Assembly (NCBI RefSeq): GCF_041886205.1
Contig: NZ_CP169029.1
DNA: 64,000 nucleotides
From: Escherichia coli
GTDB lineage: Bacteria > Pseudomonadota > Gammaproteobacteria > Enterobacterales > Enterobacteriaceae
Reading direction: 5' to 3' (one strand)
Shown: positions 1,323 to 4,300 of the stretch, in pieces
How the letters are laid out: each line of letters starts with the position of its first letter
Position numbering within the stretch: position 1 is the first letter of the stretch
Made by a program: the position numbers

Positions 1323-4300
1323 TCAGCATATATACAAAAGATATTTTTCATATGCAACAGGAACCAACTATCATTGAAATCGGTTTTATGAATCAGTTTA
1401 TCACTTTAAATATTTTAAAGAATCACTCATATATATCATATTTTGTGATGTGCTTTGAACTCTTCTCGCTCTAAATCCCCGACACTTTTCTTTATAAAAC
1501 AGTTAAAATAAACAGTATCAATAAGTTATTTGCCAATATTTGAGTGTTACATATTTATTTGGTATCTATTGATTAATATTTCTATATTTAATATATCCTT
1601 ATTTGTTATCTCATGTTTACTCCTTTATAAAATATAATTCTGTTTTATTGATATAAACAAAAAATGAGTAAATATAACATAGACAGAATATTAATACATT
1701 CAAAAAAAATACAATAATATTTATACGGTCTTGTATTTTATTCTTTTTTGTTGTTGCTAGTGGTGCATCCTGTTATTTAATTAATATAGGGATGGTGAAT
1801 TTAATATTTTTGCACAAAATATCATGATAGCACATGCAATAGAAGATCATCAGAGTTAATCTTTTGTGTTGTCTTTTTTACTAGTTATATTTCTGGAGCA
1901 GGTATAAATGAGTTATAAAAATAACTAACACCAGTGAATGAGTGAGTCTCTCCTGAAAAAAATAGTATTGAACACGACTGTTATATCTGATTACATGAAT
2001 TCTAAAATGAGATGATAAATGGAGTAAACTTATGAAATTAAAGTATCTGTCATGTATAATATTTTCCATCTCTGGCGATGGGGCATTAGTTCTGCCCCAG
2101 TTTTCTAATTTTTCATGACGTGTCAGCGAAATAGTAATGACACTATTTACACAATGAACTCCGCAGTTTTTCATACTCTTTGAACAATGTACGTTTGGTT
2201 TTGTAGCCATATTTATCCATTAACATAACTATCCATACAGAATATTTTCCCTCAGTTTTTTCAAGATTAAAGAAAGTATCGCATTCTTCCACCATCAACG
2301 TTCGACAGTCTGATAGCGCTTGTAAAATGACTTCACCAATACTCTGATTATCAGCCTTCGGTGGAAATAAGTGCGAAGGAAAGAGAGGAGCAGCAGCAAC
2401 CATCCCCTCCTTGTCAACGACGGGTAAAAAGTTGCTCTTCCGCAACTTGGGTGGATATTTTCATGCCAGTGGACTCATGCCCCTCTGCCTAAGTAGTTCA
2501 AATCCGGCTCAACCATACATCTGGCGTTTCAGCATCTTCAGGCGATTTACATGACCTTCGACAACACCATTACTCCAGCGACTGCTGATTGCCTCACATA
2601 TAGCCGCAACATCAGCTTCCATCCCCGCCGCCACGCGCCGAAGTTCAGTTGAACCGCTTTTGTGGACTCGAGTGAACCAACTGCTTAGCTGTGATTTATT
2701 TTGGGTTTTCAGAATACGGTAGAACTCGAGTGCCAGTTGCTGCGCTATTTTCAGCTCAGGTTCTTTTTCACACATCAGACTAATAAATCGGGAAGCATAA
2801 TTTTCTTCACCCCTGATTATTCTCCAGGGCATCAACCAGCGGCTTACCCGGGACACTGAAGGAAGTCTGGCGGCAGTAGTAACCGGTGGGCTCCAGCCTT
2901 TACGCCATTTGGCAACAGCATCCCTGAGGATGGTTTCACTGCCTGTAAACCCCCGGGCCACCATTTCCCGCCATATCCGGCTGGCGTTATAATTACCACT
3001 TTCTCGTTGCTCTTTTAACCACTCCCTCCATGGGTCCAGAAGCCCTCGCTTTGGAGGCCGGGTCGACATTTCAGGGAATGTTCCTGAACGCACCCAGCGA
3101 CTGACTGTCCAACTCTGATGCCGTTTTTTGCGGGTTTGCTGTTTAAGGCGTTTCGGACGACGGAGCGATGTTGCAGGCACAGACAGTTCTGGCTCAGGTG
3201 ATTTCTTTGGTGACAACTCACTGGCAACAAGACGTATCAGAGGCATATGTCTGTACATCATTCGTTCAAGCGCATCGCCAATATTTTTTAGCAGGTGCCA
3301 TCGATCGGCCACCTGTCTGGCCTGAGGTGCACCTTCACGTGCTGCTGTCGCATAGACTCCATTGCGATCACGTGAGACAACCTGTATTTCCGGATATTTT
3401 CTGACCCCGATCGCCAACGTACGCTGATCGCGCCCGGGAAGCAGGACGAGGGGACGGTGAGTATCAAGATTGACTATTAACGTACCGTAGCGGTGGCCCA
3501 GATGCCACGCCCACTCATCAATACCGACATGGGGCGAGCCTGACGGTTTCGTCTCCGGGGTATTGATAACCCTGCGAAGAAGAATATCTGCACTACAACA
3601 GAGCCCCACTGCCGTTGCTGCCCATTTTCCTGCCTCACCTCCGACTATTAATTCCAGTTGACGCTGTAAATTTTGTAACGCTTGTGAAGACTGCTGATGT
3701 GAACCGGCGAAGGGAGCTAGTGACCAGCAAAAATTTTTCGTGAACAAGCAGGGTTACGGCAGTACCAGTGGCGGACGGAAAATACAAGCCATAGTGTCTG
3801 GCCTGAGCAGGGTAGATGCTGTACCCAGCAACGACGACAACGTATGAACAGAGTCGCTGCGCTGAGGGCATTTAGGGCATTGTGCTGTTTTGCGTTTTCT
3901 GCGTAGATGGAGGGTTATACCGTCAGACCTAATAACTTGTCGACTGTATTGCCATCCGCAAAGTAACTGTAGAAGTGTCTGAAGAGAGTGCATTACGTTG
4001 CCCATAACTTAAAGCAGCTTAGATCATTGTTCACCAGAAAGTTTCATCCATTTTCTTTCACCCAAGTTGCAGAAGAAGCACTTTTGCACCGTTCGTGACA
4101 CTAATCGACCAGCCTTACTGGAGAGGCTGGTTGGTGATTAACTGGGAGTATTGCAATTAGAGGTGTTCTACAGGCTCAAGAAGGGTGTCGTTAAGGGGAA
4201 GTCATCTTCACAGCGATTTTCAGTCAGTTAGCATTACCGACATTCATTCACCAACTTACCGGAGATAATCAATGTCAAAACCCCGATGGACCATTGAACA

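What the first reader, a model, noticed from the sequence alone, without database searches (positions are those of the whole stretch)
2509..4005. ISL3-family transposase inactivated by an in-frame stop
The zinc-finger N-terminal ORF and the DDE/C-terminal ORF are in the same frame, separated by a TAA at 3754-3756 and two codons; the element is therefore non-autonomous unless the stop is suppressed.
Basis: seen in the sequence. Interest (0 to 1): 0.3.

Follow-up and report, generated by a model that had tools for sequence, protein, structure and literature searches.

The report
Decayed ISEc38-like insertion sequence relic
This is an ordinary dead copy of a common E. coli jumping gene (an ISEc38-like ISL3 element) whose transposase gene is broken by two frameshifts, a 75-base deletion and a premature stop, not by one stop codon.

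Summary
The literal observation holds. On the minus strand, an 83-codon ORF (3754-4005) and a 412-codon ORF (2509-3747) share a frame, separated by TAA (3754-3756) and two codons.

The window is E. coli JML285 chromosome. The element (2412-4100, 1689 bp) is a degenerate ISEc38-like ISL3 insertion sequence, about 94% identical to intact 1764-bp copies that encode one 539-aa transposase.

Alignment shows four lesions:
- an extra base at 3842 (+1)
- a missing base between 3725 and 3724 (-1)
- a 75-bp in-frame deletion at 3110/3109, which removes a helix-turn-helix
- CGA>TGA (R524*) at 2509-2511

The TAA is not a mutation. The same triplet is invariant in all six relatives examined, where it is read out of frame (CGT-AAC in the CRNPAC zinc knuckle). 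The upstream +1 insertion exposes it here. Suppressing the stop would therefore not restore the protein, and the N-terminal ORF no longer encodes a complete zinc ribbon.

The same indels recur in independent assemblies, so they are not sequencing errors. NCBI already annotates the gene as a frameshifted ISL3 pseudogene. The finding is ordinary, already known and of low interest.

The parts
2412..4100 (-). Whole degenerate ISEc38-like (ISL3 family) insertion sequence, 1689 bp. Intact relatives are 1764 bp.
   Evidence: Homology to intact copies begins and ends exactly here. Intact elements L004 and L005 are 1764 bp. This is the only copy in the window.
4059..4100 (.). Terminal inverted repeat at the transposase-upstream end
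   Evidence: 42-nt imperfect IR pair, 76% complementary. The intact ISEc38 copy has a 45-nt pair at 80%. Four substitutions relative to the intact copies.
2412..2453 (.). Terminal inverted repeat at the transposase-downstream end
   Evidence: The flanking 5-mers are CTCCT and CTAAT, so there is no target-site duplication. Three intact copies have 5-bp duplications.
3843..4005 (-). Codons 1-54 of the ancestral transposase, still in the ancestral frame. Includes the first zinc knuckle (CPKC).
   Evidence: Alignment A1 and the repaired translation.
3842..3842 (-). One-base insertion (extra C on the coding strand; CATACGTTG versus CATA-GTTG), giving a +1 frameshift
   Evidence: Absent from all six relatives. 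Present in independent assemblies L008-L011.
3725..3841 (-). Out-of-frame segment. In the ancestral frame it encodes the second half of the Zn ribbon (…HLPCSGQTLWLVFSVRHWYCRNPACSRKIFA).
   Evidence: The frame-2 translation matches the intact protein. dN/dS in the ancestral frame is 0.10-0.24 for codons 56-95.
3754..3756 (-). TAA read as a stop only in the shifted frame. In the ancestral frame it spans CGT|AAC (R-N of CRNPAC).
   Evidence: CCGTAACC is invariant in all seven sequences.
3724..3725 (-). Site of a one-base deletion (GCCGAGTC > GCTG-GTC) that returns the reading frame to the ancestral one
   Evidence: Present in L008-L012.
2509..3747 (-). 412-codon ORF (TTG start) carrying the ISL3 DDE domain in the ancestral frame
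   Evidence: PF01610 E=2e-30. The exact product is recorded on 161 contigs.
3109..3110 (-). Junction of a 75-bp in-frame deletion. It removes 25 codons (TEVMALHNKGCSFREISRITGLSRV, a helix-turn-helix) and lies between GACAG microhomologies.
   Evidence: The HTH_7/HTH_38/IS21-like HTH hits at aa 293-338 of the intact protein are lost. The junction is present in L008-L012.
2509..2511 (-). Premature TGA (CGA>TGA, R524*)
2461..2508 (-). The last 15 ancestral codons plus the original TGA stop, now untranslated
   Evidence: Repaired translation and alignment A1.

Best explanation
Window 2412-4100 is a dead, vertically inherited relic of an ISEc38-like ISL3-family insertion sequence in the E. coli JML285 lineage.

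The ancestral element was 1764 bp. It had roughly 42-45-nt imperfect terminal inverted repeats and encoded one 539-aa transposase. That protein has an N-terminal zinc ribbon and a DDE domain that carries an inserted HTH region.

The relic's gene has at least four disabling lesions:
1. A +1 insertion at 3842.
2. A -1 deletion at 3725/3724.
3. A 75-bp microhomology-flanked deletion of the HTH.
4. An R524* nonsense mutation.

The 'in-frame TAA' is a pre-existing out-of-frame triplet exposed by lesion 1. The two ORFs share a frame only because lesions 1 and 2 cancel each other.

The element also lacks a target-site duplication and has substitutions in both inverted repeats.

Shown: the lesions, their presence in independent assemblies, and the family assignment. 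Inferred: the element makes no functional transposase and is immobile, and the order of the lesions.
For: - **Identity:** The window is 100% identical to NZ_AP024114.1, where PGAP annotates 2509-4005 as 'ISL3 family transposase, pseudogene, frameshifted'.
- **Relatives:** 3,361 of 5,426 complete E. coli genomes hold related copies. Intact ones encode a 539-aa protein, annotated on plasmids as 'ISL3-like element ISEc38 family transposase'.
- **Lesions:** Alignments A1 and A2 pinpoint the four lesions and show that CCGTAACC is invariant.
- **Repair test:** Removing base 3842 and restoring one base at 3725 recovers the CRNPAC knuckle and a single ORF. That ORF scores 323.8 bits against NF033550 transpos_ISL3, cutoff 180.
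- **Zinc ribbon:** Zn_ribbon_ISL3 is absent from the ORF as it stands. It scores 19 bits after repair and 38 bits in an intact copy.
- **Selection:** dN/dS against intact copies is 0.32-0.35, compared with 0.16 between intact copies. There are 36 private replacements.
- **Not an artefact:** The exact 412-aa product occurs on 161 contigs, always in the IS66 / relic / cdiI / katG context. The three indels are exact in L008-L011 (L012 is cut before the insertion site). L008 is 100% identical over 2.5 kb.
Against: - No expression or transposition data exist for this element.
- dN/dS is well below 1, so much of the 6% divergence predates inactivation. The time of death is not resolved.
- The long 412-codon ORF retains the candidate D, D and E residues. 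A truncated product cannot be formally excluded.
- The ISfinder reference sequence of ISEc38 was not available, so the comparison rests on PGAP-named copies.
Confidence: 0.95

Rival explanations
1. One reading: an otherwise intact ISL3 transposase gene is knocked out by a single nonsense (TAA) mutation, and would be rescued by stop suppression or reversion.
For: The two ORFs are in one frame, separated by TAA and two codons.
Against: The TAA triplet is identical in four intact and two other copies, so it is not a substitution. The 39 codons around it are out of frame relative to the family. Three further lesions exist. PGAP labels the gene 'frameshifted', not 'internal stop'.
Confidence: 0.01
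2. The frameshifts and the stop are sequencing or assembly errors in one genome record, and the real gene is intact.
For: Single-base indels are typical errors of long-read assemblies. Only one of the 5,426 complete genomes has this copy.
Against: The same +1, -1 and 75-bp lesions are exact in independent Logan (SRA run) and NCBI draft assemblies, and the ORF is on 161 contigs. Neither indel lies in a homopolymer.
Confidence: 0.01
3. Programmed recoding (ribosomal frameshifting or read-through) yields a functional full-length transposase from the two ORFs.
For: Some IS families (IS1, IS3) use programmed frameshifting; this is established knowledge. The two ORFs abut in one frame.
Against: Intact family members have one uninterrupted ORF. 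Restoring the ancestral protein would need two opposite shifts 118 nt apart. The HTH and the C-terminus would still be missing.
Confidence: 0.01
4. The 412-aa downstream ORF is expressed as an N-terminally truncated DDE protein with a retained role, for example as a transposition inhibitor or a domesticated protein.
For: The ORF is long, keeps the candidate DDE residues, and is 100% conserved on 161 contigs.
Against: The conservation is clonal: the flanking non-coding DNA is equally identical. The ORF has a TTG start with no visible Shine-Dalgarno sequence upstream. It lacks the Zn ribbon, the HTH and the C-terminus. dN/dS is raised and non-conservative private changes such as W200G, R128W and R136C are present. 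No other ISEc38-type copy is in the chromosome for it to act on.
Confidence: 0.03

Closest known systems
ISEc38 (ISL3 family insertion sequence of E. coli; the PGAP product name is 'ISL3-like element ISEc38 family transposase')
   Same: Colinear over the whole length and 93-94.5% nucleotide identity. It has the same terminal inverted repeats and the same transposase architecture: Zn ribbon, ISL3 DDE domain and an inserted HTH region. ISEc38 is routinely listed in E. coli mobilome surveys.
   Different: It is 75 bp shorter and has four ORF-disrupting lesions. It has 36 private amino-acid changes, substitutions in both IRs and no target-site duplication. At about 6% divergence it is ISEc38-like rather than an ISEc38 isoform.
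Other chromosomal ISL3/ISEc38 pseudogene relics in E. coli (for example O157:H7 FRIK944 and STEC299 pSTEC299_1)
   Same: They are degenerate, PGAP-flagged ISL3 transposase pseudogenes of the same IS lineage.
   Different: Those relics are 3'-truncated with internal stops. The window's relic keeps both ends and has its own unique set of lesions.

Membership tests
ISL3 family insertion sequence | Transposase with the ISL3-type DDE domain (Pfam PF01610; NCBIfam NF033550) | tested here: met
   PF01610 E=2e-30 on the 412-aa ORF. NF033550 scores 323.8 bits against a cutoff of 180 on the conceptually repaired protein.
ISL3 family insertion sequence | N-terminal zinc ribbon (PF14690, Zn_ribbon_ISL3) | tested here: not met
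   No hit in the 83-aa ORF as it stands. After the frameshift is repaired the score is only 19.1 bits, below the 25.5 cutoff. The intact relative scores 37.9 bits. The domain is ancestral but destroyed here.
ISL3 family insertion sequence | Imperfect terminal inverted repeats bounding the element | tested here: met
   42-nt arms at 2412-2453 and 4059-4100, 76% complementary. They are homologous to the 45-nt IRs of an intact copy.
ISL3 family insertion sequence | Direct target-site duplication flanking the element | tested here: not met
   The window flanks are CTCCT and CTAAT. Three intact relatives show 5-bp duplications: CAAGA, ACAAC and CATGG. The 8-bp duplication usually quoted for ISL3 is from memory and was not seen in these copies.
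ISEc38 (as an isoform of that named IS) | Near-identity to the reference element. The ISfinder convention recalled from memory is roughly >=95% nt or >=98% aa. | tested here: inconclusive
   Identity to PGAP-named ISEc38-family copies is 93-94.5% nt. The ISfinder reference itself was not available.
Autonomous (functional) insertion sequence | One uninterrupted transposase ORF with all domains | tested here: not met
   A +1 and a -1 frameshift, a 75-bp deletion of the HTH, and R524*.
Non-autonomous element mobilisable in trans | Intact IRs, plus a source of cognate transposase in the same cell | tested here: inconclusive
   The IRs are present but carry substitutions. The JML285 chromosome holds only this one place. 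No ISL3 gene is annotated in the 100 kb of plasmid P1 and the 50 kb of plasmid P2 that were inspected. The remaining plasmid sequence was not checked.

The most novel reading that the evidence does not exclude
The 412-aa ORF, exactly conserved on 161 contigs, might be expressed as a truncated DDE protein lacking the zinc ribbon and the HTH, with some retained host or regulatory role rather than being pure junk.
Probability: 0.03. Interest if true: 0.3.

Novelty: already known. Interest (0 to 1): 0.04.

Why it matters
It matters little biologically. This is one more decaying IS copy in a strain-specific island full of IS debris.

The practical lesson is for annotation. Two same-frame ORFs split by a stop codon can come from a compensating pair of frameshifts rather than a nonsense mutation. 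Only alignment to intact relatives tells the two apart. The difference changes any prediction about rescue by stop suppression.

Tried and rejected
- **83-aa upstream ORF:** An exact look-up in public assemblies found nothing on record. Gene callers probably do not call it. The 412-aa ORF was used instead and was informative.
- **Shared insertion site:** Searches of both flanks in complete E. coli genomes found none. The left flank (cdiI side) is unique to JML285. IS66 homology starts only at about 4178. The missing target duplication therefore could not be explained in detail.
- **Intact ISEc38 elsewhere in JML285:** The plasmid survey was only partial.
- **Literature:** The search on ISEc38 returned only mobilome lists and no mechanistic work.
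- **Recoding and sequencing error:** Both were considered and rejected (see the rival explanations).

Full report
**Observation.**
- The feature lies on the minus strand.
- The ORF listing gives an 83-codon ORF at 3754-4005 (ATG start, TAA stop at 3754-3756) and a 412-codon ORF at 2509-3747 (TTG start).
- The six bases between them (3748-3753) are two codons. Translating 2509-4005 in one frame gives a single internal stop.

**Identity of the element.**
- The window is 100% identical to the chromosome of E. coli JML285 (NZ_AP024114.1).
- Related DNA is present in 3,361 of 5,426 complete E. coli genomes. Nearly all of it is 90-95% identical to the window.
- It also occurs on 508 plasmids of Escherichia, Klebsiella, Salmonella and others. 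Intact copies there are named 'ISL3-like element ISEc38 family transposase'.
- Intact elements are 1764 bp and encode one 539-aa protein.
- The window's homology to them runs from 2412 to 4100 (1689 bp). It is bounded by a 42-nt imperfect inverted repeat.
- ISEc38 is a familiar entry in E. coli mobilome surveys.

**What actually broke the gene.** Alignment of the window copy with two intact copies (A1; coordinates) shows four structural differences:
1. An extra base at 3842 (coding strand CATACGTTG versus CATA-GTTG).
2. A missing base between 3725 and 3724 (GCTG-GTC versus GCCGAGTC).
3. A 75-bp deletion at 3110/3109, lying between two GACAG microhomologies.
4. CGA>TGA at 2509-2511. This removes the last 15 codons; the ancestral stop is at 2461-2463.

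**The TAA is not a mutation.**
- A second alignment used six relatives: four intact copies, including two PGAP-named ISEc38 copies, and two other relics. Only the window has the two single-base indels.
- The octamer CCGTAACC that contains the 'stop' is invariant in all seven sequences.
- In intact genes it is read as ...TGC CGT AAC CCT GCT TGT... (C-R-N-P-A-C), the second knuckle of the zinc ribbon.
- In the window the +1 insertion, 86 nt upstream, shifts the frame so that TAA is read as a stop. The -1 deletion, 29 nt downstream, restores the ancestral frame. That is why the two ORFs appear to be 'in the same frame'.
- Conceptually removing base 3842 and adding one base at 3725 recovers ...SCRRCWVQHLPCSGQTLWLVFSVRHWYCRNPACSRKIFAE... 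and a continuous reading frame.

**Domain evidence.**
- The intact relative has Zn_ribbon_ISL3 (37.9 bits) and DDE_Tnp_ISL3 (E=8e-35). It also has several HTH models at residues 293-338.
- That region also matches the N-terminal HTH part of IS21-family transposases (NF033546, E=2e-16).
- The window's 83-aa ORF hits nothing. The 412-aa ORF hits only the DDE domain.
- The repaired protein passes the NCBIfam ISL3 equivalog model (323.8 bits against a cutoff of 180). Its zinc ribbon scores only 19.1 bits, below the cutoff, and the HTH hits are gone because the 75-bp deletion removes them.
- Read-through of the TAA would therefore yield a protein with the following defects:
  - about 39 wrong residues in place of half the zinc ribbon
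  - no HTH
  - no conserved C-terminus

**Decay signature.**
- In the ancestral frame, dN/dS between the window copy and intact copies is 0.32-0.35. Between the two intact copies it is 0.16.
- There are 36 replacements at positions where both intact copies agree, including W200G, R128W, R136C and R524*.
- In the now out-of-frame segment (codons 56-95), substitutions are still mostly synonymous in the ancestral frame (dN/dS 0.10-0.24). This confirms which frame was the selected one. It also suggests that much of the divergence predates the frameshift.
- The 5' 600 nt are more diverged (89-92%) than the rest (95-99%).
- Both inverted repeats carry substitutions.
- The element has no target-site duplication (CTCCT versus CTAAT). 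Three intact copies each have a 5-bp one.

**Not an artefact.**
- The exact 412-aa product is recorded on 161 contigs from NCBI, ENA and Logan assemblies. The context is always IS66 / relic / cdiI / katG.
- The insertion, the deletion and the 75-bp junction are matched exactly in the independent loci L008-L011. L012 is cut before the insertion site but has the other two.
- L008 is 100% identical to the window over 2.5 kb.
- Neither single-base indel lies in a homopolymer.

**Mobility.**
- The window holds no second copy, and the JML285 chromosome holds only this place.
- No ISL3 gene is annotated in the parts of two JML285 plasmids that I inspected. That survey is incomplete.
- I infer that the relic is immobile. 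This was not tested.

**Comparison and verdict.**
- This is an ISEc38-like ISL3 element in an advanced state of decay. It resembles other PGAP-flagged ISL3 relics in E. coli, but has its own set of lesions.
- It works like nothing: it is a fossil.
- It is already annotated as a frameshifted pseudogene in RefSeq.
- Interest is very low. The only residual non-trivial reading is that the long downstream ORF is expressed as a truncated protein. I rate this at about 3%.

Noticed in passing
window 5023-6054 (+), with tnpA 4272-4601 and tnpB about 4588-4980: The neighbouring IS66-family element's TnpC is only 343 aa. The Pfam DDE_Tnp_IS66 match is split, and its best stretch covers only profile positions 227-283 of 284. 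Most of the catalytic core therefore seems to be deleted in frame, although RefSeq annotates the protein as intact.
   Followed up: partly
window 4101-4177: A 77-bp stretch lies between the ISL3 relic's end (4100) and the point where homology to other E. coli IS66 copies begins, at about 4178. Its origin is unplaced. It may hold the degraded IS66 left end or the remnant of the original target.
   Followed up: no
L002 3058-4677 (intact ISEc38-like transposase), residues about 293-396: Intact ISEc38-type transposases carry an insert of about 100 aa between the second D and the E of the ISL3 DDE domain. The insert resembles the N-terminal HTH region of IS21-family transposases (NF033546 E=2e-16; HTH_7, HTH_38, HTH_29). 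It accounts for their unusual 539-aa length.
   Followed up: partly
window 2143-2403 (-): An orphan contact-dependent-inhibition immunity gene (CdiI, PF07262 E=2e-13) starts 8 bp from the IS end. No cdiA toxin gene is annotated nearby.
   Followed up: partly
L002, L003, L004 (flanks of intact ISEc38-like copies): Three intact copies are each flanked by a 5-bp direct repeat (CAAGA, ACAAC, CATGG). This differs from the 8 bp I recall as usual for ISL3 elements.
   Followed up: partly
window about 1-10100 (L001 1-13721): The relic sits in a strain-specific island beside ompC. The island carries katG, cytochrome b562, IS630 and IS66 debris, and fragments of type VI secretion genes. The left flank is unique to JML285 among 5,426 complete E. 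coli genomes, yet the locus is present on 161 draft or Logan contigs.
   Followed up: partly
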